Shown here: positions 1-31,159 of the stretch, piece by piece | How positions within the stretch are numbered: the stretch's first letter is position 1 | Layout: each line of letters opens with the position of its first letter | Assembly (NCBI RefSeq): GCF_000150275.1 | Contig: NW_002060951.1 | Coordinates: 2,256,323-2,320,322 of the forward strand | Direction: 5' to 3' | Source of the DNA: Trichoplax adhaerens | Lineage: Eukaryota > Animalia > Placozoa | DNA: 64,000 nucleotides | The notes under the pieces: model-generated | Database searches by the model: none | Told to the model about the DNA's origin: nothing | What the model saw: only the letters and a program-made list of their open reading frames with translations | Translations under genes and position numbers: made by a program

Positions 1-573
1 GTTGTAGGACTAGTATTACTAAATTAATAATGATCGTAACTTAACTACAAACTGCATCTTTCTACGGTATATAAAGAAGTGTAACTATAAAAAAAGTATG
101 AAATTACTATCTAACATCGTATGACTTTTAACAAAAATATGCCATAGAAAATGCGTAAGTTCTAACCTGAATAAAGGAGTCAGATTTACAATATACTACT
201 ATATCAAGTAAAAGCTACAATAGTTAAGCCAAATTAAGCTATTTTTAAGGTTGCAATACTTATTAAAATACAAAAACTTGAAAGAGAATTCTAAAAATTA
301 ACCTTCCTTATATAGTGAAAAAAAATCCTCTGAAATATTAAGGTTCACCAGCCATCGGCCTATACAATTTTTTAACTAAATTAATGTGACTGCATTATAT
401 ACAATATAATATTGTACATGCATGCTACGTAATCTTCTAACTCCATTGAATGCAACAAATCGCAGTAGGCTTATGATGATTAATTATTCAGGTACCATCG
501 AGTCTTTATCGTTTTTATTTTATGAAACCTACACAATAATGAAATTGCAGTTGAAAGTGATACCGGTAGAATA

Positions 574-1688
574 TTAATGAGATTTACAGCTAGCAGTAAT
601 TTCGTCCCAGTCAGGCCAAAATCTCGCTTTCATGCGATCAGAAAACGCAACAAGATTTGAAAATTCTTCCCTAACCATCTTATTTGGCCAACTGTCTTCA
701 CTTAAGCCAGAAAGAATGTTTACGATAAAACCAAAAACACAGGCATCAATTGTTGTAGGATCGTTACCGAGGAAGAATTGCTTATTTCCTAAGGTGATAG
801 AGAGGGCCATAAGATCACCTCTTGCAATATGTCGGATTTCTTCGGGGGAATGTCTTCCCATGCCGTGACCATACATACATTTTTTTACGTAAGGTATTAT
901 CATCAATTTAAAGACGTAGTACTTGAACCATGGTAGGGGCACACACTTGCCGAACCATTCAAAATCTTCGATAAAGCGATTATATACAATTACGGCCCTA
1001 AATGTTGTAGGTAAAAGTTTTGAGTTATCATAACGAATTAATACTGTACACTTGCGCGCATATTTACAAAACAGAAAAGCTATTCGTATTACAATAATCT
1101 GATTTTTACCACTCGTGCAGTGTGGCAATTATATAAATGGAATACTCCTAGATCAAACTGATCAGCTCGTACTTATTACAGTGTTCTAAAAAACTTTATA
1201 TCTTTAGAAATGGTACTAGAAATTGCTTACCATATCGTATTTTCCTCTACAGTCTTTAATATAAAACGAGCCAATGCTTTTTGCTCGGCATCTAGGTGAT
1301 CGTCAATTTGAACATTAAATCGTTCTGTTAAAAATTCCATTATAAACGTAGAATCACAGTAGCTTTTGCCATCCAACTCTATCCATGGCATCTTATTTTC
1401 TCTACCGAAGGGGTGTCTAAGATCATGTACAAATTCAATGTTAGCCATACGAAGAAATGTCTGGAGCTTTAACACAAATGGTGACGGATTAACTATCACA
1501 GGGCAAGGTCCATCACCGTGAAGAACTACTAGACCCGGTTTTGCCAGTGGGCTCATATATTCTTTGCATTTATTCCTTGTAAAGCCATAGTAAGTTGCTA
1601 ATGATGCCATACATGACATAGCTACTACAGTGGTACCTACTGGGTGATTTAGGACGTATTCAACAATTTGGGATACATCAAACGCCAT
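574..1688 (-). CDS. FAXC-like (failed axon connections homologue; metaxin-type GST-N/GST-C fold) paralogue A. Two coding exons: 1231..1688 and 574..997, with a phase-2 intron that splits a Trp codon as TG|G
   Basis: ORF-track frames 1227..1688 and 574..1128 both lie on the minus strand. Exon 1 encodes an N-terminal hydrophobic helix followed by ...KPGLVVLHG...SPFVLKLQTFLRMANIEF...KMPWIELDG...EENTIW. The donor is TG|gtaagc at 1232/1231. The acceptor is cattTAG|GGCC at 998-1000. Exon 2 encodes RAVIVYNRFIED...YGHGMGRHSPEEIRHIARGDL...TIDACVFGF...WPDWDEI. This matches my recollection of the FAXC C-terminal GST-C region (GIGRHSPEEI...TVDATVFGHLAQ...FWPEW). Paralogues B and C have the same two-exon structure and the same intron position. 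Confidence 0.7.
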
Positions 1689-3176
1689 CTATCTATGAGC
1701 TGTATTTAGTTTTAGTTTTAAGTGAAGATCAAATTACGCACACAGTTAAGTATACAGTATTACACTACACAGCAGTGTCCTGTATTTCACAGAGCACAGT
1801 AAATAAATAATAACTTAGATCTGCTCAATCTATTTTGGCTTGAGTATAAACTGCAATATATCGATCTGTTTCTTTCGTCAATACAATGTTCACTTGAGAC
1901 CCTGTCACAGTAATAGTAATTAAAATTATGTAACAGTAAGCATTTAGATCATATTATATAGATTGTAATATGGAAAATTAAATGTGCCTATGGTTCTGTT
2001 AGAGCACAGTGCAGCAGTCAATAAGGCATGATTACAAGGGGGCATGATTAGAGCATGATCAGGGTGTGATTATAAAGCAATAAGAAAGGTGGGTATGATT
2101 ACAAGACAACAAGAAACGTTTGTTCATTGGCCTAATTCCCACTTAACCGAAAAAATTAGGAAAATCATTAGGACCAGATCAATGAGCAAGCGTTTCTTGT
2201 TGGCTTGTTCTGTAATCATGCCCTAATCTAATTTTAGTAAAATTAAATAGTTTTTAATAAGTTATGCAGCAGCAAGCGCTCAGTTAAACTTATTTACAGA
2301 TAAATTACTAGATAAATAAACGTCGAATAACTACGTTGGTTACACATCGCTGCTAGACAGCCAATCAGCACCTGCCTCGTTGGCACTAAACATGACATGT
2401 ATGAAATTTCTCAAATTATTCTGAGCAAATCCAGTCAAGAATGTGCATAAAGTTATTATTATATTAATTTAAAGATATGATCACGTTCGCTATTGCTTAC
2501 TGCAAATGATCTAATACGAAATCATTACTTCATTTGAATGACTCTTGTTTTGTTTACGAATATACGTTAATACGTTATAAAATCATGTATTGTATATGAG
2601 TGCGGTAAACTGTATCTACTGCATTTTATTCGAACAGTTCAAATAGATTGCGTATTGCTACGTATTATCAATATACTGTACATATATCTCATAATTATAC
2701 TTAATACAAGTAGTTATCATAATAATTTTAGACAGGGAAGAACATATATATTACAAGTCATATACATAACGCTATAAAATTGACTAATCAATAAAATTAA
2801 TTAATAAATGGTATAGTACTGTATATTGTACACTACCGTGCAACACTCGTAACTTTACATCATACGCTTACAATACGTACATGTGTGTGCATAGTAGTGA
2901 TAGTACGCATTTTAAGAATGATGCAAAACCGATGATGTCATTATTATATAAACAATATGTATTGGCTTATAGCATAGATATTTATTGAGAGCATTTCAAG
3001 ATACTCCTCATATCCTTTTATTGCTGGTTTTATTCGAGCTCGCATCTTGTTATCTGCATTAACATCAGCAACATCTATAAGTTAAGCTATTAGCTGCATC
3101 CATTTCATGTTCAAACTTTAATATACTCCTATAATAATCTTATTCCATTCCATCTACGAATCTACATCGTATAAAT
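1689..3176. promoter_or_regulatory. Divergent (head-to-head) intergenic region between FAXC-like paralogues A and B. Presumed bidirectional promoter. It contains the MITE-like insertion at 2091-2223
   Basis: The two ATGs, at 1688 (minus) and 3177 (plus), face away from each other across 1.5 kb of AT-rich sequence. No other ORFs are present. Confidence 0.4.
2091..2223. mobile_element. MITE-like non-autonomous element (about 133 bp) with roughly 35-bp terminal inverted repeats. It is preceded by degenerate tandem copies of the TIR head motif GCATGATTA (2026-2105)
   Basis: Left arm gggtatgattacaagacaacaagaaacgtttgttc (2091-2125). Right arm 2185-2223 (gagcaagcgtttcttgttggcttgttctgtaatcatgccc), whose reverse complement gggcatgattacagaacaagccaacaagaaacgcttgctc aligns with the left arm apart from one 5-bp indel. 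Upstream repeats: ggcatgattacaag, ggcatgattagagcatgatcaggg, tgtgattataaag. Confidence 0.5.
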
Positions 3177-4274
3177 ATGACATCAAATATAGATTACATT
3201 ACAGATTTTCTTGGAAAGAACCCTTATCCAGTCATTGCCATTACTATTATTGGCATTGGAAGCTGCTACTTCTATATAACAGGTGGTCGTAACTCCAAAT
3301 CTAAATCATTTCCTAAAAGTCCGTTGGCTAAACCTGGTTTGGTTGTCCTTCACGGTGCTAACCCTGGCAGTTCAATTGTCAATCCATCACCTTATGTGTT
3401 AAAGCTGCAAACATTTCTACGAATGGCAAAGATCGAATATGTATTTGATCGTAATAACCCTATGGGTAGAAAGGGGAAAATGCCTTGGATCGAGCTTGAT
3501 GGAGATGCTTATTGCGATTCTACTTTTATAATTGAACATCTGACAAAAAAATTCAATGTATCTATTGACCGTAGCCTTAGCGAGCAGCAAAAAGCAGTGG
3601 CTCGAGTTATCCAGAAAACGATTGAAGAGAATACAATCTGGTACTACAAATTAAGCTGATTTTTTATGATGTTTACGACCAGGCTCATTTAGAATGCATG
3701 GTAGTTATATTAATTAATTATTTTAATATATCTATGCGTGTAACATGTATGCTTATACATATGACGTAAACGTGTATATACGCATCTAGCTACAACTTTA
3801 CATTTCATTGTATATATATATGTCATATTGTACAGTAATATTTGACTGTTAATTTATAGGGCTACAATAATTTATAATCGCCTTATTGAGGAGGCTGACT
3901 GGTTTCTAAACATGATGAAATTTCCCTGGTTTGTTGGGGTAATATTCAAGTTATTCTTTGTTCCTCCAGTTAAGAAGAACTTGTACGGACATGGTATCGG
4001 CAGACACACACCCCAAGAGATTAGGCACATTGCCAGAGGCGATCTGGCAGCTCTGTCTGCCCTGCTTAAAGATAAATCGTTCTTTCTTGGTGATCAACCC
4101 ACTACAATAGATGCGTGTGTTTTCTCCTTTACTGCTAATATTATATATGGGTTACGCCCTGGAAGCTGGCCAAATGAAATGATCAAAAGCGAATTTCCGA
4201 ATCTTGTAGCATTTACAAATCGTATGAAAGAGAATTATTGGCCTGATTGGGACGAAATTATTAGCAAAGCATAA
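3177..4274 (+). CDS. FAXC-like paralogue B. Exons 3177..3640 and 3860..4274 (879 nt, 292 aa)
   Basis: ATG at 3177. Exon 1 ends ...EENTIW with the donor TG|gtacta at 3640/3641. The acceptor is ttatAG|G at 3859/3860. Exon 2 reads ATIIYNRLIEEADWFLNMMKFPWFVG...YGHGIGRHTPQEIRHIARGDLAALS...TIDACVFSF...WPDWDEIISKA*. The spliced CDS is exactly 879 nt, the same length as paralogue C. B is about 70% identical to A and C across the GST-like core. Confidence 0.7.
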
Positions 4275-4376
4275 CGTTAGCTTGAAAAATTATCGTAAAT
4301 TGCTATCATGAAGAGGACACTGCAGCTCTAAGATCAATTAATTATATGACCTTGAAAAAGCCTCATCCATATTTGT

Positions 4377-4990
4377 GTCACGGACTAGTACGAATGTACG
4401 GTTATACCGGTGCATATAGTAGTCCATGTTTGTGCAATTTTTAGTAATGTAGAAAAGTTGGTTAGTGAAGTGTGATGTAGCTATGGACCACTACATGCTT
4501 TACCATAAAGCATCTACCGAGGTCCATGTTGTAGTAAGTATGCTATGCTACAGCTGTTTCTGATAAAGAAATGTTAATCTATGTATAATGTATGGCCGAC
4601 TTATTTCAGATTACAATTATGTATAATTTGATCACCGGCTCCTTTATAGCTGAGGGCACTAAATTTTGAGAGCCATTTTAAAATTCTTACTGACTGTGAA
4701 TCTATGTTTAAAAATGTAACCAAGTTTAGCCCCATTTTGTATTAGACAAAATAATTTGTAAATTTTCTACTCGTGTATTAAAATAAAATTAATACGGTAG
4801 AGACAAGTTATGATTCTGGTCATGGTTAAATACACCTATCGGTACAACTGCTCATGATACTTGGCATACTCGTACCATATTTAGTATAAAGCTAGAATAA
4901 CGCACATAACCCACAGATCAATAGAAGTAGGTTTTCTTAACGTGGTCCGTGACTAATCACGTAAGCTAGACCATGGACCACTAGAAATAC
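4377..4990. repeat. Cluster of short dispersed direct and inverted repeats. It may be a degraded transposon remnant downstream of FAXC-like B
   Basis: gtcacggac (4378-4386) pairs with gtccgtgac (4947-4955) as an inverted repeat. atggaccacta occurs at 4484 and 4972. tccatgtt occurs at 4424 and 4523. The region has no long ORF. Confidence 0.3.
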
Positions 4991-6037
4991 TGTAGGAAGG
5001 CACTATCTGGCATGAGTTGCGGGTACACAGCCGTAAACTACAGTCTGTACTCTCAGTAGAGCTTAGCAACAGGCAATGCAATGGAACGTAAATTACTATG
5101 TATTAGTAAGTAATATTACTTACTTACTTTTAGAAAAAAATCAGTCAATTCAGAACCGACTGTCTTCATACTGAAGTCATAACGAGGTATATGACTTAAT
5201 TTGTTGACGAAATAAGGCCAAGTGTCCGTCCGCCCGCAGGAGTGTCCATTGTCCATTCCTGTCTGAGCTTACGAAGTCAAAAAGTTTTGGCTGCTGTTAT
5301 ATGTAGTCAAAGGCAATTTGTGAAATTATAGCAATACTATCTGTAAAGAAGAAGCTCAAAATCATTTACCTGTTCGTTAGTCTGCATTTAACTTTAAGGA
5401 TCGAGGATTCAGGTATGAAGTGATTTATACATACTGTACTGTATAGTATAATTTGTTTTTTAATTCCGTACCGTATCATTGGACTATTTTATAGCTCACC
5501 AGTATTCACATTACTCAAATTCTACTAGTATCAGCAATGCAGAGTCCTATTGACACCTGTTAACAACTGCATAAGTGCATTGTTGATCGTGGAGATTACG
5601 ACAGTCTCTAGCTCTTGAGATTGTTGTAAGTAATGTTGGAAATGATTCAGCACTGTTCTAATAATAAAGCAAAAGGATTAACTGCGAAGCTGTGTGCAAT
5701 AAGATCTATAAAACACGCAATGCATGTACTGTACGCATGGTGTAATGAGAGTTCCACTCATTGCATTTTTCGTACGCGTACAAGTTAAATTAAATTTTAT
5801 TTTAATTTTACTTCAATATTCGTATTTATTGTGCTAGGTTAATACGGGCGTTCTAACAGTGTTTGTAACCGGCAGACGGTAACCAGAATACGACTCATCA
5901 TTATTTATTGGCCTACGGAAGTCAGGTGTTGAGTGTCTTCAGTACTATACACCCTTGGGAGATCTTGCATTGGGTATTCTGATATACTGTAATAAGTTAA
6001 CACTAAATATAATAATATTTAAAAGCATAGCCGGCAT

Positions 6038-6080
6038 TACTGTACTGTACAGTGTACACTACCTGAGACACTACAGTACT
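6038..6080. repeat. Short GTAC palindromic array 20-60 bp upstream of the FAXC-like C ATG
   Basis: The sequence reads attactgtactgtacagtgtacactacctgagacactacagtactc. Confidence 0.6.
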
Positions 6081-6100
6081 CAACAATAAAGTTAAACAAG

Positions 6101-7587
6101 ATGAACTTTGACCTGTCGTCGCCCATAAATTTCGCCAGCAGCAATCCGATTGCAGTGGGATCTTTAATAGTTTTATGTGTCGGAGGTTATTTATACATGA
6201 GCAAAAAAAAGCCAAAATCATTCCCTAAAAGTGCCTTAGCTAAGCCAGGGTTAGTCGTCCTTCATGGCGCTGGAGCTGGGAGTACTGTAGTCAATCCATC
6301 ACCGTTCGTCTTGAAGTTACAAACCTTTTTACGAATGGCTAACATCGAATTTGTCCACGATTTGAAAAATCCGTGTGGTAGAAAAAATAAGATGCCATGG
6401 ATTGAGCTTGATGGAGAAGACTACTGTGATTCTACATTTATCATTGAGTTTTTAACGGAAAGATTTAACGTTCAAATTGATAGCCATCTAAGCGACGAAC
6501 AAAAGGCCGTAGCTCGAGTTATTCAGAAGACCGTTGAAGAGAATACAGTATGGTAAGTTAATTTTTTTATTATACAGTTGACTTCAACCGCGATCGCTTG
6601 CTATAATTATATAATCCGTGTAAGTATATACAGTATTTTATGTAATGTAAAGCGTACTATCTGCAAGCCTTTAGTCTGTGTATTGGAGATACGCAAGCTA
6701 CGAATTCTAGATTGAATTCAAACAGAGTGACTTGTTGTACCTTAGGACAACATCATTAGAGGCTTTACATCTATACATCTAATTAACTTCAGGCTTATTC
6801 TAAAATTAAACAAGCTTGTAACGAATCGGCATAGTTTACTTTACTACAGCTTGTATTATTTCCAACCATATTAACTAACGATGCTGCACGCGTTAAATAT
6901 TACCTGTAAATGAACCTAATGTAGCGGCTATAACGATAGTGATACGAAAAACAGGTTTCAATCGAATTAAGATAAAATTGTATTGGCAATAAAGTAGGCA
7001 AATTTTTAATATGTTATAATGTAATGCAATTATTTTTGAGTCTACGACAGTCCCTATCTTAAAATGGCGATCTATTGTATGTCTATTTGGTCTTAAATTT
7101 CTAATAGCCAACTGTAGTAGTGGATCCGTAATAATTTTATCATTGATTATATAACTATAGGGCTGCAATCATCTATAATCGTTGGATTCAAGATACCGAT
7201 TATTTCCGTCAGATGATGAAGCTCTCCTGGTTTGTTGGCCGGATATTAAAGATGGCTGTTGTACCTGCAATTAAGAAAAGCATGTACGGCCATGGAATTG
7301 GTAGGCATTCCGCAGAAGAGATTCAGCACATAGCTAGAGGTGACATTAAAGCGCTCTCGGATCTGCTTAAGGACAAGCAGTTTTTTTTTGGTGATAAACC
7401 GACTACAATCGATGCTTGTGTGTTTGCTTTTCTTGCCAATGTTCTTCATGGTTTGCGTAAAGATAGTTGGCCGGCTGAAATGGTAAGGAACGAATTTCCT
7501 AATCTTGCAACTTACTTTGAACGCATAAAAGAGAATGTTTGGCCAGACTGGGATGAAATCGTTAGTAAAGCTGGCTCGAAAAAATAA
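6101..7587 (+). CDS. FAXC-like paralogue C. Exons 6101..6552 and 7161..7587 (879 nt)
   Basis: ATG at 6101. Exon 1 ends ...EENTVW with donor TG|gtaagt at 6552/6553. The acceptor is ctatAG|G at 7159-7160. Exon 2 reads AAIIYNRWIQDTDYFRQMMKLSWFVG...YGHGIGRHSAEEIQHIARGDIKALS...WPDWDEIVSKAGSKK*. The intron phase and position are identical to paralogues A and B. Confidence 0.7.
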
Positions 7588-7801
7588 GATCAAGTATTAT
7601 ATAGTAACAACTTTATACTTTGTAGTTTTAGTGATTCATAAGATTATAACTTTGCTTTTATAAAGGCAGCGATAAAAGATATAGATATATTTAATGAATC
7701 TGTTACTCATTTAAAAAATTGGATTAGACTAGTAAACTACCATATTCTATTTTTACGAAATTGCTGACGCGTATAAAAAGCAGGAATTCAACTGCGACAC
7801 T

Positions 7802-8050
7802 ATTCGATAATAGGCAAGTTCTTATGGGATTTATCGGACTGTTTTATATGGTAGAGCAACTATAAGGGACTAACCATCCTTTTTTGCTATTACTTACGTA
7901 ATGCTCTACACTTAATTCGTTGCTTATACAATATTCGATAGTAGACAAATTTTTATGAAATTTATCGAACCGTTTTATGTGGTAGAGCAACTAGAAGGGC
8001 TAAACATCCTTTGCTTTTACTTACGTAATATTGTATACTTAATTCGTTGC
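7802..8050. repeat. Tandem duplication. Two copies of about 120 bp with a period of about 131 bp and about 85% identity
   Basis: Copy 1 (7802-7923) reads attcgataataggcaagttcttatgggatttatcggactgttttatatggtagagcaactataagggactaaccatcc...cttaattcgttgct. Copy 2 (7933-8050) reads attcgatagtagacaaatttttatgaaatttatcgaaccgttttatgtggtagagcaactagaagggctaaacatcc...cttaattcgttgct. Confidence 0.7.
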
Positions 8051-9036
8051 TAAGAAATACTGATGTACCTCGATATATTATTATTTACGGTCCAGTATTT
8101 GACGTCTCCCAAGCTAAGCGTCTGATACAAGCCGCAGCTTATATGGCTCTTTAAGAAAATAACACAATAAAGTCAATATAATTTTAATATTTAGCTTCCA
8201 AAATAACTATTCAATGATGCTTAGACATATCTTAGTGGAAGCGTTGCTATTTCCAATTGTTTTACTCCATTGATCTGCAGAACGAAGGTTTGCATGAGTT
8301 TTATCTTTCGTACTGGATTCGCGAATACATAATTATTAAATCACCTTAACATAACCATTACCGCAACTCTTGCAAATAACGCTATGAAAATGTCTTGGAA
8401 TTTTTTTTCATGATGGCTTGAGCTGCCGCCTGCATAATTTATAATCGTATTACTCTTATACTCGTACATGTATGTCAGCAATTCAAGTTAAAGCTTGACG
8501 AATTATAAATACTATTTCATTCTCCTTTCATTTAAATATAAATGTTGTTAATATGAGAGAATGATCTTTGATATTATTATAGTTTTGTTTCTCAAAGAGT
8601 ATTTATCATTACTATTAGCTACCGTTATTGCAGAGCCGAGAGGATTTGACCGGTCTAAATTTGCAGTGATAGTGTAACATCCAAGATCCCGTGATCTTTA
8701 CAAGTAATTAATTATTCACTGAAGACTACATGGAAAATTCAAGAAAAACAACAACATAGATTTGCAATTTGAGAACTGTGCACAAGAGGGGGAAGACTAA
8801 GAGTTAAAGAATCACCAAGAGTTCATATTATTCACGCAATCCCTTAAAATTTAGACGTACTAAGAATAACTATACTCATTTAGTAGTAGCAAGCATTTCT
8901 CCTACGCAAGTTAGTTTAATCTCTTTGCTAAGTTCTAATTGGAGTACTGTATAGTCTCTTAAAAATTATTCAGCTTTACATTCTTATAATTCTTATTACA
9001 CTTTGATTCACACTCGTGATTTTAGGATACCTTAAA

Positions 9037-9140
9037 GTACAGTACTCTGATTCGAACTGGTTCACACTCAGTACGATACAGTACAGTACTGTACAGTAAT
9101 TCATGGATGTACACTTGTACAGTACGTACTGTACTGTACT
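9037..9140. repeat. GTACT/GTACA palindromic pentamer array, about 420 bp upstream of the GLT1D1-like ATG
   Basis: The sequence reads ...agtacagtactctg...cagtacgatacagtacagtactgtacagtaa...gtacagtacgtactgtactgtactg. The units are GTACA/GTACT. Each run is its own reverse complement (TACTGTACAGTA). Confidence 0.75.
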
Positions 9141-9190
9141 GAAAGAGAAGACAAGCTGCTACGCAAGCGTAGCAGCTTGTCTTCTCTTTC
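9141..9190. repeat. Perfect 24-bp inverted repeat with a 2-nt spacer (hairpin or cruciform). It is followed by a partial third copy of one arm at 9191-9211
   Basis: gaaagagaagacaagctgctacgc | aa | gcgtagcagcttgtcttctctttc. The right arm is the exact reverse complement of the left arm. It lies immediately 3' of the GTAC array. Confidence 0.8.
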
Positions 9191-9562
9191 AGTACAAGCG
9201 TAGCAGCTTTGATTGATTGAATTTGAGGGTGTTGTCGATTGTGTTACCTAGATTCATTCGGTTCATCAAAGATTGCATATGAATTAGGCACTGTGCAAAG
9301 TTAGTTGTCACCCCATGAACCGTTTCTTCTTTAATAGCTTAGTAAAAGACAAAGTAAAGATGAAAATAACATGACAATTCATTTTGCACACTACTGGAGA
9401 TTACCAAACTTGCGGCCTGGTTAGATTAGACACTCAGTTAATTTGCAGCTGTTACCCGTCGGCGCTGTTATTAACAATACTGCTGTAGGCAGCAGATGAG
9501 TTAATAACTATCTATAACTATATAATTTCTGGTAAAAAGTAATTTCATTTTTCTTATTGACG

Positions 9563-12500
9563 ATGCCTTCTGTCTTGCTGTTATACAGCTCGAAGGGAAA
9601 GGAGTGCGGAAATTCATCAACTTCTGAAAGGTTGAGGTAATAAGGAAATTAAGATATTTACAATGAATATCTTACACGTACGTTAACGTTAAACTACCTC
9701 AGTATTACTAATGATAATTGTGTGTGTATTTACTATTACTTTCACAAGCGTTTATCTACTAATAATATATGGATATTTATCATTGACAGTTGATTGAATG
9801 TAAAGCATTAGGATCTGTCGTAAATTTCTTGATATTCTACGTACAGTACTATACGTAGAGCTAAGAAAGGTTCGGTTATAACTAATTAGATTATTCAGTT
9901 TTAGTTGTCTTAGGTATTTCGTTTATAAATTCAATGTAGGGGTTATGAATGATCATACTAAGATAGTGCATACTGTACAGAACAGTGTATAGTATCTTAG
10001 TATGATCATGCACTGAAATAGAATCTAATCTAATAGCACCTCAAAATTATTTCACGAAAACTCTTGAAATCTTAACAATAATATTATCATTCAATGAGGC
10101 TGATCATCACTTTGTGATTCTGTGCTATATTGTTGTAATTGCTGATAGATTATAATTATAGAACAGACTTAAAAATCACTAGACCATTAATGTAGTAAAA
10201 ATAGGTAGAACATTAGTCTGTATTCCAGGGTCATTCTGAGTAACATGTCTTCTTGTATTGGAGAAATTTACCTAGCCAATAAATCGTCGAGTCTCTAGAA
10301 ATTGACTTGTTGTGTATTCTCTAAATCCGTATTTTAGATATACTGTACTTTACTGTACATTGATGAATTATAATGGCTCATTTAGAAAATTTGTTTGTAT
10401 TCACTTTCGCCTATGTTTTAACTAGGAAATTCTAGTAGACCGTGGTTTTAGACACGCATTGATGAATTATAATATCTGCTTATTTAGGAAACTTTTAAAC
10501 CATGCAGGAATCGGATGCACATGTAAACAAATCGCTGACTTTACTGGTGCACCATCACTAAACAATTACCTCCAAGGAAATCATTTTAATTGTGTTATTG
10601 GCATTCATGCTTATCGAACTGGCAATTTGTTGATTAGTAAGCCAAACTACGAAAGAATCCTTATTGTAACTATCGTATTATACTGTAAAGGAATAAATAA
10701 TGAACTGTTCGCCGTGTCTGAGAGTAGACGTATTAAAAGCCAGAAAGATAATAAGCTTATATATAATTTGTTGTTGTGACTATAAAATACTACAGTTCCA
10801 TTTCGAATCCAAATAATATCGATTAACTCTATTGAAATTTTAATGTAATCCTACTTACAATAATTGATTGATCACTCTAAGTAATGATACAGGTAAAGAT
10901 TCTGAGTTAACTAATAGCGCTAGTAGCTTGCCAATGTATTCCTAATATTTTTGACAAGCACGCACAATTACGTCTACTTTCTTCTAGGCTGCTGCCTACC
11001 ATATGCCATAGTTTTTGCAGGTACTGACCTGAACACGCACATTCACGATGCTAAGAAAATGCCTATTATCACTGAAGCCGTTCTTGGGGCTAGGTACTAA
11101 TAAATTGTAATTAATTTGTGATATAACTGATGTTAGTATGAAATCTAACCTCGAGAAATTAACTAAACTTTCAGAATCATTCCTTTTCATATTGCATGCA
11201 CTTTTTTTGATATATTTTTTACAAGGTATTTAGTTAGTACATATATTTAGTCAGAATTGTACAGCTATTCGTATATCAATAAAATTGAGCTACTTTCGGT
11301 TTGTATTCTTGTGGATTACTGTTAGTGCAGTATAAATATATTAAAAAACAGATTATTGATTGATAGGATATTATTTCCGATATTACATAAGAGAATTACT
11401 CAGTTTATTTTTGTCTACTACAGATACTTAATTGCGTTTACCCGCTCTCATTTTAATCTAGCTATGGCTCAATGGGTGAGAGGATAAAATAAGTTTTCTT
11501 ATATAACCTTAAAAATATTGCAATCTAAACAAATGTTATATATATTTGTACCATGATATATTTTCTGATCCCGGAATATGTAGCCAACACAAATAAATAA
11601 CATTATTAAACAACCACAAAGTAAGACATAGCCTAGTAATACTAACGTAATGTAGATGATTAAAATTTAAATATTCATTTCTTATAACTGTGTAAAGACT
11701 ACAGTCTTAATTGATTCCCTACTCCCAGTAATATTTCCATAAACCCTTTTTTACATCTACCTTCAAGGTGTTGTTACAAACCCACAAAATACGTTTTCTT
11801 TTAAAGCCCATTTACAAGAGAAATTGGGTAAGTAACCTTTAAGACAATGGATCTTAATAGAACATTTAATCATGTTTCTATAAATATTACAATATTATAT
11901 TTGCTTCCTGCTATAATTTTTTGCTCGGTTCTGATAATGTACCAAACTCATCCTTTAGCTGGAATTTTTTAAGTTTGATAACAATAAATCAGTTATCAAT
12001 GGAATGTTACTCGCTTATAAACAGTCCGTCACCACCGCATTAATTTTGAATTTTCTTCCTAGGCATGCAAGAACAAAATCTACAAAACATCGTAAGATTA
12101 ATCGAGTACTAAGTCACATTGTAATAGTCTCTCAGTGTTATGAATACTATAATTAGTGGTGAATATTTAATAACAAAAATACCGATAAAGTTTCTGTTGC
12201 AACCTGAATGAGAGATATAGACTTATAAAACAACGGACTATCATCAACTACCATGCCCAATATGCAATTTTGCATGATTTTAACCAAGTTGAAAATTTTC
12301 AATCCTGTATAGACTATCTTTCTATTAGTTGCTGGCATACGACCAATAAAAGATCCTCTATTCTTAGCTGATGCTGTTTCAGGTTATTTAAATAGTAACT
12401 TGTTGCACGATTGTTAGAAGCTAATTTTAGAATATCCTATCTCGACACTTTACAGAATGGCATCGGAAAGATCCGTCAATTTATCTCGTTATAATAGGAC

Positions 12501-13306
12501 CTGAGGTAATAAACTTGTTATTTTGTGCTGCTATTTTTGAGTATAACATTTATTACCAGTACAACAGCTAAATAGATGTACTTCGAGTCTAGATCGATAC
12601 GGAATTCTCTTATAAGATGAAAGAAAATCTTTTACGGTATAGATAGAAATATAGTGCTAACGAAAACATCGATTTATATTTTTATATGCATTTTAATTTT
12701 GTTGCTTCTGTTCTGAACCTATGTAAATTTTTAGATATACTGGAGTTTATTATGTAGACTCAATTCCTCAACCAAAATTACATATGGCCTTGAGACAGTG
12801 TACAGCGTTAGTTAATTCTTCAATAAATGAAGGAATGTGTGGAGTGATCTTAGAGGTACTTCATAGTTTTTCAGGGTACAATTAAAATATCCCAGGAATT
12901 ATTAGGATCTACTTTGCCTTAAAATTATAATGAAATACTTAACATTAATTTAACCAAATAATTTCATAGGCTATGAATCTCGGTACCCCAGTAATTGCTC
13001 GAAGAAATGCGGGAAATTGCGAAATTGTTGATCATCTTAAAACAGGGTTATTATTTAATACACCAGAGGTAATATTCCCAATCTAACAAGTATAATTTGT
13101 ATAACATTAAACATATGATGTAATCTTCTCTCTTTATGAAATTGTAGGAATTTATAGGTTTAGCAAAATATCTATTGTCTTCACATCAACTAAGAGATGC
13201 TTTAGTCAGACACGCTGTTAATTATGTTGAAGCAGAGCATTCTTTATCCGAAGAGATGGAGACTTACTGTAATATCGTTCATACTATATCCGGTAAAGGC
13301 TTATAG
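9563..13306 (+). CDS. GLT1D1: Glycosyltransferase 1 domain-containing protein 1 (GLT1D1)-like gene. 13 coding exons: 9563..9636, 10488..10636, 10988..11093, 11424..11475, 11584..11620, 11768..11827, 12063..12091, 12313..12382, 12456..12505, 12593..12636, 12735..12855, 12970..13068, 13148..13306. The CDS is 1050 nt (349 aa)
   Basis: All junctions are GT-AG and phase-consistent, and the exon lengths sum to 1050. The translation follows my recollection of human GLT1D1 throughout: MPSVLLLYSSKGKECGNSSTSERLR / KLLNHAGIGCTCKQIADF...NCVIGIHAYRTGNLL / CLPYAIVFAGTDLNTHIHDAKKMPIITEAVLGAR / YLIAFTRSHFNLAMAQW / ...TNPQNTFSFKAHLQEKL / GMQEQNLQNI / TIFLLVAGIRPIKDPLFLADAVS / EWHRKDPSIYLVIIGPE / IDTEFSYKMKENLL / RYTGVYYVDSIPQPKLHMALRQCTALVNSSINEGMCGVILE / AMNLGTPVIARRNAGNCEIVDHLKTGLLFNTPE / EFIGLAKYLL...TISGKGL*. 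The matching human segments are FGVIFGGTDVN, NVHLVILGPE and [29 protein letters not shown]. Confidence 0.8.
9949..10009. repeat. Inverted repeat with 17-bp arms around a 27-bp loop that itself contains a GTAC palindrome. It is located in GLT1D1-like intron 1
   Basis: The arms are atgatcatactaagata ... tatcttagtatgatcat. The loop is gtgcatactgtacagaacagtgtatag. Confidence 0.7.
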
Positions 13307-13828
13307 TTACAGATTTACACTGCCTATAACGAATGAATAACCTGCTACATTATTTAGCTTTATAGCAATGACATGACTCGGGCATGTAAGTTAGTATCTT
13401 TGTATACATACAGTAATATATTTTGGTCAGTAATATCTTATCAAGAATGTGGTTACTATCCAATATTTATATTGTACTTCATTCATGTTTTTATCTATAA
13501 AATTTAAGCAACTTATAGCTCCTTATGCTTTATTACGATAACACACTGTATTGAGACAGTGTACGTATAAGAGCAACCCAGAGTTTTACAGAGCAAATAT
13601 ATATATATTTTTATTGATACACTGCATTCATTGGTATTTAAACATTTATTATGATACAATGTTATATGGAGTAAAATAGGTAACGGAACTAACATAAAAA
13701 TACACATTATGTGCTTCTCTTAATTTAAACGCTGTACACTATCAGAATGTGTTATCTTCTCCATCTGAAAAAATGAAATAAAATATTTCTTCAATGATAT
13801 AACGTAAATTTACAACTAAGTAGCTATA

Positions 13829-16800
13829 TCACAAAAATCTATAAGCATACAATTTCAGAACTCTATCTTTTCCTCCACTTGCAACTTTTTCTCCATCAGG
13901 GCTCCAATCAATAGCATAAACCTGTTAAAATGGAATTAGAACGTTGCAATTGGATGACTTATAAAACCTTTCACATACATAAAAGATATTGCAACTAACC
14001 TCATCAGCATGACCCGGTAAATCCATGTGTAACTTCTTACTCTTCACATCCCATACCTGTCATAAGTATTACACATTACTGAAAAGTATACTGACGGTAT
14101 TATCATGAGATAAATAACATGACACCTACTTTTAATGTGCTGTCTGCACTGCTACTCAAAAACAGCCGACTGTCAGCTGACCAAGACACCTAAAACAATT
14201 TATAAGTTGTTATCTTTAAAAGCCTATGAATGCATGTTTAATTAAGTAATCTGTAATTAGGGGAACCTGATACACTGACTTTACATGGCCACGTAAAGAT
14301 GTAATGAATCTAAGTATGGCAGAAGAGTATGTATAAGTCTCTAGCTATCGTGATAGCAATAATCTAAAGCTTTAATTGGTAAGTGAATCAAGTCATCCAA
14401 CTATCAACATTCGGTCATACCTTCCAGTGATGCCATCCCATAGTTTAACCGATTTATCAAAGGAAGCGCTGGCAATTAACCGCGTGTCCGGCGAAAAGCA
14501 TACCATATTTACAAGTTGTTGATGACCTACGATTAAGCAGTAATACACAACAAACGACGGATTGATTTAGTAGCGAGTCAGTTTCTAAAATAAAATATTA
14601 TACCCATAAACGGATCATTCCGTACCCGTCATGCGAGCTATCGGCGTTTTTTCTTTAGCAGGATGCCATAAAAACAAAGTGTAATCGTCAGATCCAGAAA
14701 CCATAAGTTCTTTCCCCGTTAGTTTCTGTTATATGAGTGAATCAATTGTTAGTAAAGTTATATGATTATTTTCAGCTACTCTAAAATAATCTTCCAAAAC
14801 TGTAATGCCCAATTGCGGTAAAATAAATTGTACAGACATACGAGAGCTAAGTTATATTTTTGAAGGGATTTTTCTTGACGATTTTTCTCTGTTGTGAAAA
14901 GTAACAATATTATCAGTTAGGCACCCGAATATCAAAAGTAAATTTCATATAGGAACACATTAAGACTCATATCTTACTTCCTCCTACTAATAATTTCTCT
15001 CCCTTAGCCGGATCATATGCACCAATACGCATGGCGTAGTCCGTATTTAAAGCCATAGTGTTAACCTATAAAATTAAAATATCGAAGGTATAAATAATAA
15101 TAAACATAAATAAAATCAGGGATTACTGTTCCAATATCGTTTACGCGTATAAATGATATTAAATACTATTAAAGTAGGATTACACACCCAATGTCCATGA
15201 CCTTGAAGGGTTCTGCATAAAATTCCCTAATTTAATTACAGTTATGTAACATTTATTTTTAATAAAATATTTTAATAGTCGATATAATTAGTTTACAAGT
15301 TTAAAAATACTAAAGTCAACTTTAATGCATCACTAACATCGCTCGCCCTCCAAACTTTTATAGTTCTGTCTTGGGAAGAAGTATATATTAAACCTTCACC
15401 GCCCCATTTCACACAAGTGACACATTGTAGATGTCCAGAAAGTACATATTTCGTTATACCAGTTACGGTATCCCATACTCGTACAGAAGCATCCTATCGT
15501 ACATACAGTAAGCTACGTTTATAAGTGCGCGAATAACTGATTTAAACTCTATAATGCCATATGAATAACTAGCCTTCGAAGAACTTGCTAAAAAGCGGCA
15601 GTCGGAATCTCTATTAAAACATCGTAATTGAGAAAAAATTATGTATGGTAGAACAAACATAATTTACTTATGATTGCGGATTAAAAGAGTACTTAGTCTA
15701 GCGTACTATTCTACTGTGTAACGAACTTGTGCATAGGTTCCCAGCTTAAGTAAGTAATCCACTGTTTGTGTCCTACTAAAACGTGCCCAATCTGTTTTCC
15801 GGTTTTGGGATCCCATAGGCAAATCTATACATAAATTTTATTTCCATTAAAAAGCTCCAATTGATCAGGTATCGCTAAACAGTGATATTAGCAGATATAC
15901 ACAACACTACAGTAAAATTTATAACATACCTCTCCTTTCTTACATCCTGAAGCTAACTTTTCTCCATCTGGTGACCAAGCAATAGATAGTATCCAATGTT
16001 TATGACCTGTAGAGTCATAACATGCAAGTTAGCATACGAATTTAAATCATTCCAGAAATTTCATTACAGGTACATGAGATAAACCTTTGCAAGTATAATC
16101 TGGAGTTTCGGTATTGATGTCCCAAAATCTAACCGTAGTATCACCAGATCCACTTGCAAGGTAGCTAAAAGACAAAAGAATTTTCAAATTCGACTTTATC
16201 CACGGTTCTTCTTATCAGATAACTATTTACAGTAGTTACCTGCCATCAGGACTGTAGGCAACAGATATTACAGCTTCGGTATGACCTGGTACGAAACGGC
16301 AATCATCAATAATTTATAACACGCGTACATTAAATGGCCTGAAATAGATTTACATGACACTACAACAATTAAAGGTCAAATATTAAGCATTCTATTTGCT
16401 TGTACTATACCTGGTAAAGTACTACTACATCGTGTAACTGACTTAACCCGAAATACGGCCTGAGGTTGGTAAACTATCTCTATAATACTTTCTGTATCAA
16501 CATTTTTTGCAGTGATAGTAGTTTGCAGGTCATCCAATATTTCTTCATTATTGAGATAAAAAGCGTAAGGTGTTGAATCATCCTACATTACAGGGATTAC
16601 AAGTGAGTATAGCTTATTTAGACAAATCGACGATAATACATACTTAATTATAAATTCTATTTTTCAAAGTCGAAAAACTCAGCTGAATAGATAACCATAA
16701 TACAATCTTACCTCATTTATAACAGCATTACAAATCAATTGAAGGCGTTTGACATCTACTTCGATCGGGACGTCTAGGGGAGAACCGACTAATTCGCCAG

Positions 16801-16899: not shown

Positions 16900-18167
16900 T
16901 CGCACAAATTTAACGTTTAGCGGAAGTATGATTAATAATATGAAAACATACTGTACATTGCAGCACAGTAATATAATATAAGAACTGTTAAATTATCATT
17001 GCAAATAAAATTGACTTGTTTGATAAGCATTTATACGTAGTAGCATCTATCATTGGTCAAAAGTATAATAAATGTCCTTGTATATGGTAGTACGTATACC
17101 AATAACTGGTTTCTACTGTTATTAACGGAATAAAAATAATGTAAGAATTGCAAATCTTAGTATATCAAAGCATCGTACCGTACCTACAGTATGATCAGAA
17201 ATTTATTTCTATACGAAGACACCTTAAACATGAATGTTCTACAGGTACAGTAATGAATAGAGATGCAACTAGTGACAACCTGACAACATGTCCTCGTGAT
17301 TGATGATAAAATTAGGTTATCTCATTGAGATATTATAATGATATATATACTAATTAATGCATCATTGACATCGAGATTTACAGTAAATATATCATCGGTG
17401 AACTGATCTGAGCTTGTTGCAGTTGCATCTTACAATGCATACACTATTCTACTGTATAAGATCCTTAAAAGGTGTGAGCTCATTATTGCAACTCGTTTTA
17501 TATTCATATTTCGCAACACAATGTCCTAAAAGTAAGTCATTATAATACATCCAAATGCAGTACAGTACGCAGTAAATATTGAAGACTCATTGACAAGGTA
17601 AGCTTTTAAGACTGCAATCAATGCGCCTAACAGTCACTCATTAATAACTGATAAAATCAATAAATCAGTACTTGCAAACTACAGTATGTGTACAAATGGA
17701 AGTACAATGTAATCGGATTATAATTACGGTATTTATCAGTCGTATTACAGAACTACCTATCTTCCAATTCAATATGTTACAGTGTTACTGGACAAGTACA
17801 CATGCTCTACAATTCCGTTAGCCATATAAATTGGTGTAATTAATCATGGCATCAAACATGTTTCCCTGTTCTAAGGCATGTTTCTAGCTTTCAGAGTTTT
17901 GAAGTCTACAAGCATTTGCATAAGCGTTTTTGCATTGCTGGGTGGTGAGTTGTGCTGCACCAAACTCAAACGGATACAGTACTACACGAAAGATTGAAAA
18001 ACATTCTACAGCTATCCCAAGCAAGGCAAATCAACAGCTAACCTCATAATGTCATGGAAATTTATCGTTAATCGTTCAGCTTTAAAAAATATTACCAAAT
18101 TTACACATCTAATCTACCATGTACAGCAGTGTCTGCAACTTAGCAACTTCTTTATTTCACTTCGAAG

Positions 18168-30493: not shown

Positions 30494-31159
30494 ATGATAT
30501 CGCACTTTAGTTTTAAGATGTTTAATGCTAAACATCAAACGGAAATCTCAGAAGGCAACAAAAGCTCAGAAGTTATTAGCCACAGCAATCAAAACAGTCA
30601 AAAATCTTCTCCTATCATTATGAAACGTCACTTTGCCTCGCCAGCTACCAGACAATCTACACCGAACCTAGCGTCTGAGTCTAAACCTCGCCGATTTAGT
30701 TTTGACCGAAGTGTATTTTCATTACGTTCTTCTCCAAGAGCAACGAAAAAACAGTCTGACGAAGCAGTGATAATTGGTGATGGTAATCCTAATAGCAACA
30801 AAAACGGCAGTAAGCCATCAAGCAAAAAGTCTATAAAGAGCTTAAGTACAGTTAGTGTAAATCAACCTTCTACTAGTAAACCGAAGATGACAAGATCAAC
30901 TTCAATAGAACATTATATGTCGAAATTTGGGCATCGAAAATTAACTCGTCAAGATGCGTCTGATTTAATGAACCCTAATGCAGATTTCGAAGATAATACC
31001 CAATCAAGTCGTCAGATGCGATACGAATCGATGCAACTTATTGCACAATCTTTTGATAACGATTCTATTGTTATATCGCACTTCGATAGTAATTCAAACA
31101 GCAGCAATGAAAATCAAGACATTCAAGATAAGAGCGGTTGCAGTCCATCAAGTCTGTGA
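30494..31159 (+). CDS. Open reading frame for a Ser/Asn/Lys-rich, apparently disordered protein (221 aa). It may be an exon of a larger gene. Identity unknown
   Basis: A 666-nt ORF with no stop, in a genome where random ORFs of this length are rare at about 67% AT. The predicted protein is low-complexity (SSPIIMKRHFASPATRQSTPNLASESKPRRFSFDRS...SNSNSSNENQDIQDKS). I do not recognise a conserved domain. Confidence 0.3.
   Translation: MISHFSFKMFNAKHQTEISEGNKSSEVISHSNQNSQKSSPIIMKRHFASPATRQSTPNLASESKPRRFSFDRSVFSLRSSPRATKKQSDEAVIIGDGNPNSNKNGSKPSSKKSIKSLSTVSVNQPSTSKPKMTRSTSIEHYMSKFGHRKLTRQDASDLMNPNADFEDNTQSSRQMRYESMQLIAQSFDNDSIVISHFDSNSNSSNENQDIQDKSGCSPSSL

What the first reader, a model, noticed from the sequence alone, without database searches (positions are those of the whole stretch)
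574..7587. Tandem triplication of FAXC-like genes with one inversion, giving a head-to-head pair
Three paralogues share an identical two-exon structure, and the same phase-2 intron interrupts a conserved Trp codon in all three. They sit within 7 kb. A is inverted relative to B and C, so A and B share a 1.5-kb divergent promoter region that also carries a MITE-like insertion. Paralogues B and C have spliced CDS of exactly the same length (879 nt). Most animals are thought to carry a single FAXC gene, so this looks like a lineage-specific expansion of a poorly understood GST-fold family.
Basis: partly seen in the sequence, partly recalled or inferred. Interest (0 to 1): 0.5.

Follow-up and report, generated by a model that had tools for sequence, protein, structure and literature searches.

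The report
Placozoan FAXC-like GST gene cluster
The region holds three intact, anciently duplicated FAXC-like (glutathione-transferase-fold) genes of the placozoan Trichoplax adhaerens; they belong to a four-gene cluster and a family of at least 11 genes whose multiplicity in this animal has already been reported, so the finding is real but ordinary.

Summary
Window 574-7587 carries three two-exon paralogues (A on the minus strand, 293 aa; B and C on the plus strand, 292 aa each). Each has a GT..AG phase-2 intron that splits the Trp codon of EENTxW. All three have the Pfam domains GST_N_4 and GST_C_6. The window is Trichoplax adhaerens DNA.

The interpretation needs four corrections.
- **Cluster size:** the array has four genes. 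A fourth copy, D, lies about 1.9 kb left of the window start, convergent with A, as seen in Trichoplax sp. H2.
- **Age:** the duplications are old. Synonymous sites are saturated, amino-acid identity is 58-65%, no intron or flank similarity remains, and the array is the same in H2.
- **Intron:** it is ancestral. Tandem Exaiptasia FAXC genes have it at the same position.
- **Copy number:** invertebrates often have many FAXC genes. A 2023 preprint already reports at least 12 in T. adhaerens, six of them in one genomic segment.

New details from this work:
- The reference model TRIADDRAFT_28700 is a chimera of B exon 1 and C exon 2.
- The A-D clade is placozoan-specific, with 100% bootstrap support.
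- The closest solved structure is the bacterial epoxide-conjugating GST StyI, and the glutathione-site motifs are conserved.

From the last point I infer that these are membrane-tethered, glutathione-binding proteins. Interest is low.

The parts
574..997 (-). Gene A, exon 2 (includes the stop codon); encodes aa 153-293
   Evidence: 100% identical to TRIADDRAFT_28855 (P0003) over that model's 249 aa. GST_C_6 hit, 3.6e-19.
998..1230 (-). Gene A intron: 233 nt, GTAAGC..TTTAG, phase 2, inside the Trp codon
1231..1688 (-). Gene A, exon 1 (ATG at 1688); weakly hydrophobic N-terminal segment (KD19 1.19, below the usual 1.6 threshold) plus the thioredoxin-like half
   Evidence: (GST_N_4, 9.3e-25)
1689..3176 (.). 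1,488-bp head-to-head spacer between the A and B start codons; presumed divergent promoter region (31.5% GC)
   Evidence: Promoter function is inferred, not tested.
2022..2225 (.). Inverted-repeat hairpin element (core 2091-2223), preceded by 3 direct copies of its terminal motif GGCATGATTA; MITE-like but single-copy in the window
   Evidence: arms; z = -8.7; no other copy in the window; conserved in H2
3177..3640 (+). Gene B, exon 1
   Evidence: GST_N_4, 5.1e-28. The H2 orthologue P0002 differs at 2 aa.
3641..3859 (+). Gene B intron: 219 nt, GTACTA..TATAG, phase 2, inside the Trp codon
3860..4274 (+). Gene B, exon 2 (includes the stop codon)
   Evidence: GST_C_6, 4.7e-21
6101..6552 (+). Gene C, exon 1
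   Evidence: GST_N_4, 2.7e-28
6553..7160 (+). Gene C intron: 608 nt, GTAAGT..CTATAG, phase 2, inside the Trp codon
7161..7587 (+). Gene C, exon 2 (includes the stop codon)
   Evidence: GST_C_6, 6.4e-22. Identical to the C-terminal 142 aa of the chimeric model TRIADDRAFT_28700.

Best explanation
**What it is (shown).** The window is Trichoplax adhaerens (Placozoa) DNA. Positions 574-7587 hold three of the four members of a compact FAXC-like gene cluster, arranged D> <A B> C>. D lies just outside the left edge of the window.

**How it arose.**
- The four genes descend from one two-exon ancestor whose phase-2 intron in the EENTxW Trp codon predates the placozoan-cnidarian split (shown).
- They arose by old tandem duplications, plus either an inversion or an inverted duplication of A (inferred).
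- They sit inside a wider placozoan radiation of this family: at least 11 distinct genes in at least 3 clusters (shown).
- All copies are intact and under purifying selection (shown).

**What the proteins do (inferred, about 0.35-0.4).** Each protein has a short N-terminal hydrophobic helix followed by a cytosolic-type GST fold. The helix is clear in B and C and marginal in A and D. The glutathione-site motifs are invariant: Ser-Pro-Phe/Tyr at the start of helix alpha1, the cis-Pro loop K-M-P-W, and Asp-Ser before alpha3. The closest solved structure is the bacterial epoxide-conjugating GST StyI. I infer membrane-tethered, glutathione-binding proteins, probably thiol transferases or conjugating enzymes. 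Paralogues would differ in substrate or partner surface (beta1-alpha1 loop, alpha4-alpha5 hairpin) and in expression. The alternative is a purely structural role like the metaxins.

The confidence value of 0.8 applies to the genomic and evolutionary identity; the functional inference carries its own lower probability stated above.
For: **Organism**
- A, and the B and C parts of the existing models, are 100% identical to T. adhaerens proteins.
- The window is 98.7% identical to Trichoplax sp. H2 contig NOWV01000083.1.

**Fourth copy**
- H2 annotates four GST_N_4/GST_C_6 genes of 289, 293, 292 and 292 aa.
- D has the same TG|GT..AG|G intron.

**Age and selection**
- pS 0.73-0.87 and dN 0.25-0.35 between paralogues. 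H1 versus H2: A has 4 synonymous and 0 non-synonymous differences, B 0 and 2, C 2 and 1.
- DNA similarity is limited to the exons.
- A B-type orthologue occurs in a divergent placozoan-like metagenome contig.

**Intron ancestry**
- Four tandem Exaiptasia genes share the intron.
- Many cnidarian-grade metagenome hits stop at query residue 155, the same exon boundary.

**Phylogeny**
- The A-D clade has 100% bootstrap support. All Trichoplax paralogues except TRIADDRAFT_28248 form one clade at 76.5%.
- Other clusters exist in H2.

**Literature**
- At least 12 FAXC genes in T. adhaerens, six of them in one genomic segment.

**Protein**
- Pfam hits.
- AF2 model of H2 B: pLDDT 90.1, helix at residues 17-35, then a GST fold.
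- PDB sequence search: StyI (9qd3) at E = 3.5e-29, with aligned SPF, P and DS motifs.
- Foldseek best hit is StyI, target-normalised TM-score 0.87, rmsd 2.1 A.
- StyI and IsoI are active glutathione-epoxide conjugating enzymes (PMC8552685).
- G-site residues are invariant in A-D and nearly invariant across 60 family members, bacteria included.
- Mean pairwise identity by region: 95% and 79% for the G-site core, against 40% (beta1-alpha1 loop), 46% (alpha4-alpha5) and 30% (N-terminus).
Against: - No expression, localisation or enzyme data exist for any of these genes (one search found no paper naming them).
- FAXC is generally treated as an outlying metaxin with unknown function, possibly a non-catalytic partner of MTX2 (PMC10452860). 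Sam35 is the next-best sequence match in the PDB.
- The N-terminal hydrophobic segment is below the usual threshold in A and D (KD19 1.19 and 0.99).
- The trees are NJ on simple distances, and the order of duplication is unresolved (34-70% support).
- D was seen only in H2 DNA and as the partial H1 protein TRIADDRAFT_5603, not in the window itself.
- Deep conservation within placozoans rests on a single 894-bp metagenome contig of unknown organism.
Confidence: 0.8

Rival explanations
1. Recent lineage-specific triplication of an otherwise single-copy FAXC gene.
For: The three copies are adjacent and share exon structure and almost the same CDS length. They form an exclusive clade.
Against: - Synonymous sites are saturated and amino-acid identity is 58-65%.
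- No intron or flank homology remains.
- A fourth copy exists, and the same array is present in H2.
- A B-type orthologue occurs in a more distant placozoan-like contig.
- The family has at least 11 members in Trichoplax, and at least 12 according to Adolph 2023.
Confidence: 0.03
2. The proteins are non-catalytic metaxin-like scaffolds: partners of metaxin-2 or the SAM complex, or signalling adaptors as proposed for Drosophila Fax. On this view the GST fold is used only for protein-protein contacts.
For: - Weak Tom37 Pfam hits.
- Sam35 is the second-best PDB sequence match, and SAM-complex chains are among the top fold hits.
- The literature places FAXC as an outlying metaxin predicted to heterodimerise with MTX2.
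- Human FAXC is reported in mitochondria (PMC11145136, title and abstract).
Against: - The match to the active enzyme StyI is far stronger than to Sam35 (E 3.5e-29 against 4e-9; target-normalised TM-score 0.87 against 0.57-0.59).
- The Ser-Pro-Phe, cis-Pro and Asp-Ser motifs are conserved from bacteria to placozoans. A pure scaffold would not be expected to keep them.
Confidence: 0.35
3. One or more of the three copies is a decaying pseudogene or an assembly or annotation artefact.
For: The reference annotation has odd models here: a chimera (TRIADDRAFT_28700), an N-truncated model (28855) and a partial one (5603). B shows 0 synonymous and 2 non-synonymous differences between H1 and H2, though the counts are tiny.
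Against: - All three have complete ORFs, canonical splice sites and invariant core motifs.
- pN/pS is about 0.3 with saturated pS.
- An independent assembly and annotation (H2) gives the same full-length models.
- The copies are only about 70% identical in DNA, so they are not collapsed or duplicated assembly.
Confidence: 0.05

Closest known systems
Animal FAXC / Drosophila Fax family (metaxin-like GSTs; Pfam GST_N_4 + GST_C_6), including the multi-copy FAXC clusters described in cnidarians, molluscs, amphioxus and Trichoplax (Adolph 2023 and 2026 preprints)
   Same: - Domain pair, length (about 280-295 aa) and N-terminal hydrophobic helix.
- Same phase-2 Trp intron as the Exaiptasia genes.
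- Tandem clustering with mixed orientation.
- 35-42% identity to cnidarian and bilaterian FAXC.
   Different: - A-D are not 1:1 orthologues of fax/FAXC. They form a placozoan-only subclade.
- They lack the long acidic C-terminal tails of the Hydra, arthropod and vertebrate forms.
- Placozoans have no neurons, so the name-giving axon phenotype cannot apply.
StyI / IsoI class bacterial glutathione S-transferases (styrene-oxide and isoprene-epoxide conjugating; PDB 9qd3)
   Same: - Best solved-structure match by sequence (E = 3.5e-29) and by fold (target-normalised TM-score 0.87, rmsd 2.1 A).
- Shared SPF, cis-Pro and D/N-DS G-site motifs.
- Shared alpha4-alpha5 insertion.
   Different: - About 20% identity.
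- The bacterial enzymes are soluble and lack the N-terminal anchor.
- They are encoded in catabolic operons.
- Activity of the animal proteins has never been shown.
C. elegans CDR (cadmium-responsive) proteins
   Same: A lineage-specific multi-copy radiation of FAXC/metaxin-like GST-fold membrane proteins (Adolph 2024 preprint, abstract seen). It offers a precedent for a stress or detoxification role.
   Different: The family is restricted to nematodes. I made no direct comparison here. Its inducibility by metals is known for CDR-1 only from my background knowledge.
Metaxins / Sam35-Sam37 (mitochondrial SAM complex subunits)
   Same: GST fold with an inserted alpha4 hairpin, membrane association, and weak Tom37 Pfam similarity.
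   Different: The match is much weaker (E = 4e-9, and only the C-terminal domain aligns well).

Membership tests
FAXC-like / metaxin-like GST family | N-terminal thioredoxin-like domain of the GST_N_4 (GST_N_Metaxin-like) type | tested here: met
   PF17172 scores 87.6, 98.1 and 99.0 bits against a cut-off of 30, for A, B and C
FAXC-like / metaxin-like GST family | C-terminal helical domain of the GST_C_6 (GST_C_Metaxin-like) type | tested here: met
   PF17171 scores 68.7, 74.7 and 77.5 bits against a cut-off of 28
FAXC-like / metaxin-like GST family | Closest named relatives are FAXC homologues, and the genes group with animal FAXC rather than bacterial GSTs | tested here: met
   Hits to cnidarian, mollusc, hemichordate and arthropod 'failed axon connections' proteins at E = 1e-50 or better. 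In the NJ trees the bacterial sequences fall outside the animal clade.
FAXC-like / metaxin-like GST family | One-to-one orthology with Drosophila fax / vertebrate FAXC | tested here: not met
   A-D form a placozoan-only clade at 100%, inside a Trichoplax radiation at 76.5%. At best they are co-orthologues.
FAXC-like / metaxin-like GST family | N-terminal hydrophobic (membrane-anchor) helix before the GST fold | tested here: inconclusive
   The AF2 model has a helix at residues 17-35 of B. KD19 maxima are 1.68 (B), 1.69 (C), 1.19 (A) and 0.99 (D). No dedicated TM predictor was available.
StyI/IsoI-class glutathione S-transferases | Sequence and fold similarity to a characterised member | tested here: met
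   9qd3_A: E = 3.5e-29 over profile positions 50-277. Foldseek E = 3e-13, target-normalised TM-score 0.87, rmsd 2.1 A.
StyI/IsoI-class glutathione S-transferases | Conserved glutathione-site motifs (Ser-Pro-Phe at the alpha1 N-terminus, cis-Pro loop, Asp/Glu-Ser before alpha3) | tested here: met
   The motifs align with StyI. S71, P72, P103, D114 and S115 are invariant in A-D and invariant or at least 90% conserved across the 60 sequences. That these residues form the G-site is taken from general GST knowledge, not from the 9qd3 paper, which I could not read.
StyI/IsoI-class glutathione S-transferases | Glutathione conjugation to epoxides | not testable with these tools
   Needs an enzyme assay.
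MITE (miniature inverted-repeat transposable element) | Terminal inverted repeats | tested here: met
   Arms at 2091-2129 and 2180-2223, plus outer arms at 2022-2036 and 2211-2225. Hairpin z = -8.7.
MITE (miniature inverted-repeat transposable element) | Multiple dispersed copies in the genome | tested here: inconclusive
   No second copy in the 64-kb window. The rest of the genome was not available.
MITE (miniature inverted-repeat transposable element) | Target-site duplication flanking the element | tested here: inconclusive
   Reading the flanks showed no clear duplication. The element is identical in H2, so no empty site is available for comparison.
Recent tandem duplication | Low synonymous divergence and residual non-coding similarity between copies | tested here: not met
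   pS 0.73-0.87. blastn similarity is confined to the exons.

The most novel reading that the evidence does not exclude
The animal FAXC family, function unknown since 1995, would be the membrane-anchored eukaryotic branch of the StyI/IsoI class of epoxide- and electrophile-conjugating glutathione transferases. The placozoan radiation (at least 11 genes, including this four-gene cluster) would be a detoxification or lipid-epoxide-handling gene family. Its paralogues would have diverged mainly in the putative substrate-site loops, while the glutathione site stayed invariant.
Probability: 0.3. Interest if true: 0.45.

Novelty: already known. Interest (0 to 1): 0.15.

Why it matters
As a genomic feature it matters little. 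Multi-copy, clustered FAXC genes in Trichoplax and other invertebrates are already described, and the four genes are annotated in Trichoplax sp. H2.

There are two practical by-products.
- The T. adhaerens reference model TRIADDRAFT_28700 fuses exon 1 of one paralogue to exon 2 of the next. Neighbouring models are truncated. Expression atlases and orthology tables built on that annotation therefore miscount this family.
- The strong sequence and fold link to the enzymatically characterised StyI gives a concrete, testable biochemical hypothesis for a family whose function is still unknown in animals.

Tried and rejected
- **Locating the genes on T. adhaerens contigs.** Look-ups of TRIADDRAFT_5603, _28855 and _22364 failed because H1 gene positions are not on record. 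I therefore could not read the H1 DNA left of the window and relied on H2.
- **Metagenome scan for other placozoan loci.** It gave 42 loci. None was of placozoan grade; the best were 50% identical and matched only one exon, apparently cnidarian. Deep conservation within placozoans therefore rests on the single contig L002.
- **Literature search for the three gene identifiers.** No paper names them.
- **Search for a paper on the 9qd3 StyI structure.** Not found, so active-site residues were inferred from the alignment and from general GST knowledge.
- **Alpha/beta-hydrolase neighbours.** The hydrolase genes next to the two other Trichoplax FAXC clusters might have marked a duplicated hydrolase+FAXC block. 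tblastx between them gave nothing at E < 1e-5, so I treat the adjacency as coincidence.
- **Brute-force splice reconstruction of the Exaiptasia gene.** It printed nothing. I read the junctions directly from the sequence instead.
- **dN/dS between paralogues.** It is not meaningful because dS is saturated. Only pN and pS are reported.

Full report
**1. The observation**

Reading window 1-9000 and listing ORFs showed three pairs of ORFs with clearly related translations. Joining each pair at GT..AG sites gives three complete coding sequences:

| Gene | Strand | Exon 1 | Exon 2 | CDS | Protein | Intron |
|---|---|---|---|---|---|---|
| A | minus | 1688..1231 | 997..574 | 882 nt | 293 aa | 233 nt |
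| B | plus | 3177..3640 | 3860..4274 | 879 nt | 292 aa | 219 nt |
| C | plus | 6101..6552 | 7161..7587 | 879 nt | 292 aa | 608 nt |

In all three, exon 1 ends with TG and exon 2 begins with G. A phase-2 intron therefore splits the Trp codon of the motif EENT(I/V)W. A is inverted relative to B and C, and the A and B start codons are 1,488 bp apart. tblastn of the three proteins against the whole 64-kb window finds only these three copies.

**2. The 'MITE-like' element in the A-B spacer**

- It is a real inverted repeat. The core hairpin lies at 2091-2223, nested in outer arms at 2022-2036 and 2211-2225, and is preceded by three direct copies of the terminal motif.
- Folded as single-stranded DNA it gives -34.9 kcal/mol against -12.0 +/- 2.6 for shuffles, z = -8.7.
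- It is identical in Trichoplax sp. H2 except for one base in the loop.
- It has no other copy in the window, and I did not identify a target-site duplication by eye.
- Whether it is a transposon could not be tested.

**3. Organism and family**

- All three proteins carry GST_N_4 (PF17172) and GST_C_6 (PF17171) well above the Pfam cut-offs.
- A database search with C returned Trichoplax proteins first, then cnidarian and bilaterian 'failed axon connections' homologues at 35-42% identity. Bacterial 233-aa GST-family proteins followed at 33-40%.
- A is 100% identical to TRIADDRAFT_28855 from that model's Met45 onwards.
- TRIADDRAFT_28700 is 100% identical to B residues 96-156 followed by C residues 151-292. 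This model is a chimera that jumps from exon 1 of B to exon 2 of C.
- The window is therefore T. adhaerens DNA, and the reference annotation in this region is faulty.
- Trichoplax sp. H2 annotates B as a 292-aa 'Failed axon connections-like protein' (P0002, two substitutions).

**4. A fourth copy**

The H2 contig around P0002 (L001) is 98.7% identical to window 1-13894, with window position 1 corresponding to L001 position 6818. It carries four GST_N_4/GST_C_6 genes: 289 aa (+), 293 aa (-, equal to A), 292 aa (+, B) and 292 aa (+, C).

The extra gene, D, lies at L001 3676-4130 and 4487-4901. Its end is about 1.9 kb to the left of the window start, and it is convergent with A. It has the same TG|GTAAGT...TTAG|G intron. 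It is identical over 221 aa to the partial T. adhaerens protein TRIADDRAFT_5603. The array is therefore D> <A B> C>. The 'triplication' is an artefact of the window edge.

**5. Age and selection**

- Pairwise amino-acid identity among A-D is 58-65%.
- By Nei-Gojobori counting, pS is 0.73-0.87, which is saturated. dN is 0.25-0.35.
- Nucleotide similarity between copies is confined to the exons, at about 69-74%.
- Between H1 and H2 the orthologues differ by 4 synonymous and 0 non-synonymous sites (A), 0 and 2 (B), and 2 and 1 (C).
- A metagenomic contig (L002, sample ERZ23498939) encodes an exon 1 that is 73% identical to B but only 56-59% to A, C and D. It ends at the same TG|GT junction. This suggests B was already distinct when that presumably placozoan lineage diverged.
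- These data contradict a recent expansion. They show intact genes under purifying selection.

**6. The intron is ancestral**

In Exaiptasia (L003) four tandem FAXC genes all read ...GAA AAT ACT TA(T/C) TG|GT(A/G)AG. The first resumes ...CAG|G ACA ATG. This is the same phase-2 split of the same Trp codon.

Many cnidarian-grade metagenome matches also stop at query residue 155. Most other Trichoplax paralogues break at the same place. The shared intron reflects family ancestry, not the local duplication.

**7. Family size and phylogeny**

- Profile searches recovered further Trichoplax members: TRIADDRAFT_28248, _22364 and _5728, and the H2 proteins P0191, P0197, P0192 and P0223. With A-D that makes at least 11 distinct genes.
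- Two further H2 clusters were read. L046 has two called genes plus one uncalled FAXC-like stretch. L047 has three genes, one of them partial.
- In NJ trees (about 245 columns, 200 bootstraps) A-D form a clade with 100% support. All Trichoplax paralogues except 28248 form one clade at 76.5%. Bacterial sequences fall outside the animal sequences.
- The branching order within A-D is unresolved.
- 'Lineage-specific expansion' is therefore right at the level of the phylum, but the expansion is old and much larger than three genes.

**8. What is already known**

- Adolph (bioRxiv 10.1101/2023.01.04.522723) states that invertebrates often have many FAXC genes: Exaiptasia at least 13, T. adhaerens at least 12, Branchiostoma at least 10.
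- The same preprint reports that six of the Trichoplax genes lie in one genomic segment, three on each strand. Only vertebrates usually have a single gene.
- A 2026 preprint repeats the point.
- The H1 models of this cluster (+, -, +) and of the L046 cluster (+, -, -) lie on the same 3.21-Mb scaffold. Together they would give three genes per strand, so they may be that six-gene segment. I could not verify this.
- No paper names the three gene identifiers.

**9. How the proteins probably work**

- An AlphaFold2 model of H2 B, built with a 60-sequence alignment, has pLDDT 90.1. It shows a low-confidence helix at residues 17-35 followed by a beta-alpha-beta-alpha-beta-beta-alpha thioredoxin-like half and a helical half.
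- Kyte-Doolittle maxima support a membrane helix in B and C (about 1.7) but are marginal in A and D.
- By sequence, the best solved relative is the glutathione S-transferase StyI of Gordonia rubripertincta (9qd3, E = 3.5e-29). Sam35 follows at 4e-9.
- By fold, StyI is again first (target-normalised TM-score 0.87, rmsd 2.1 A). LigF, SAM-complex chains and many canonical GSTs follow.
- StyI and IsoI conjugate glutathione to styrene oxide and isoprene monoxide, and were described as a new GST class (PMC8552685).
- The alignment with StyI pairs SPF with SPF, the K-x-P loop, and (N/A)-D-S. Ser71, Pro72, Pro103, Asp114 and Ser115 are invariant in A-D and conserved across the 60-sequence alignment, bacteria included.
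- From general GST knowledge these positions are the catalytic or hydrogen-bonding Ser at the alpha1 N-terminus, the cis-Pro loop, and the gamma-glutamyl-binding Asp/Glu-Ser.
- Among A-D the G-site core is 79-95% identical. The beta1-alpha1 loop (40%), the alpha4-alpha5 hairpin (46%) and the N-terminus (30%) have diverged. In canonical GSTs the first two contribute to the second-substrate site.
- I therefore favour membrane-tethered glutathione-binding enzymes with diversified substrate or partner surfaces (probability about 0.35-0.4).
- The main rival is a non-catalytic metaxin-like scaffold, the view taken in the literature on human FAXC. I give it about 0.35.
- Nothing here tests activity.

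**10. Verdict**

The feature is real and was described accurately. It is a segment of an already reported, ancient, placozoan-wide FAXC-like gene family. It is not a recent triplication of a single-copy gene.

Novelty is limited to three items: the corrected gene models and chimera diagnosis, the ancestral intron, and the StyI link as a functional lead. Interest is low.

Noticed in passing
window 3177-7587 (genes B and C): The T. adhaerens reference model TRIADDRAFT_28700 (201 aa) is a chimera. Its residues 1-61 equal B residues 96-156 (B exon 1). Its residues 60-201 equal C residues 151-292 (C exon 2). It skips B exon 2 and C exon 1. TRIADDRAFT_28855 (gene A) starts at an internal Met45, and TRIADDRAFT_5603 (gene D) is partial.
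   Followed up: yes
L001 3676-4901 (Trichoplax sp. H2), about 1.9 kb left of window position 1: A fourth paralogue D (289 aa, plus strand, convergent with A) with the same phase-2 Trp intron.
   Followed up: yes
window 7797-8051: Two tandem copies of a unit of about 128 bp (7797-7924 and 7928-8051, 83.6% identical), about 200 bp downstream of the stop codon of gene C.
   Followed up: no
L046 (H2 NOWV01000061.1) and L047 (H2 NOWV01000008.1): Two further FAXC-like clusters in Trichoplax. L046 has genes at 10001-10909 (+) and 13917-15040 (-), plus an uncalled FAXC-like stretch at 17038-17961 (-). L047 has genes at 7051-8434 (+), 10001-12244 (+) and 13673-14659 (-, partial). Each cluster lies next to an alpha/beta-hydrolase gene, but the two hydrolase genes show no tblastx similarity, so the adjacency is probably coincidental.
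   Followed up: partly
L003 10001-21161 (Exaiptasia diaphana LJWW01000305.1): Four FAXC genes in head-to-tail tandem (279, 283, 284 and 286 aa), all with the same phase-2 intron in the EENTxW Trp codon as the placozoan genes.
   Followed up: yes
proteins A-D and PDB 9qd3: The closest solved structure to the FAXC-like family, by both sequence and fold, is the bacterial styrene-oxide-conjugating GST StyI. The Adolph preprint on fungal and bacterial FAXC (10.1101/2025.01.06.631459) contains none of the terms isoprene, styrene, epoxide or catalytic; I did not check the other FAXC papers for this link.
   Followed up: partly
window about 9,500-14,000 (by collinearity with L001 16749-21098): Downstream of the cluster, the H2 annotation places a GT1-family glycosyltransferase (349 aa, plus strand) and a Notchless-like WD40 gene (minus strand).
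   Followed up: no
window 57910-59112 (+): A long ORF with a Tubulin/FtsZ GTPase domain (PF00091, E = 3e-31; motif AGGTGSGLG). It is probably an exon of a divergent tubulin gene.
   Followed up: partly
window 30494-31159 (+) and 38435-39286 (-): Long Ser/Asn/Lys-rich low-complexity ORFs, probably exons of disordered proteins.
   Followed up: no
L002 (ENA ERZ23498939, 894 bp) and P0188 (ENA, 2016-bp contig): Environmental metagenome contigs encode placozoan-type FAXC-like exons or proteins. One is 73% identical to B and the other 80% to TRIADDRAFT_22364. They look like DNA of another placozoan lineage in those samples.
   Followed up: partly
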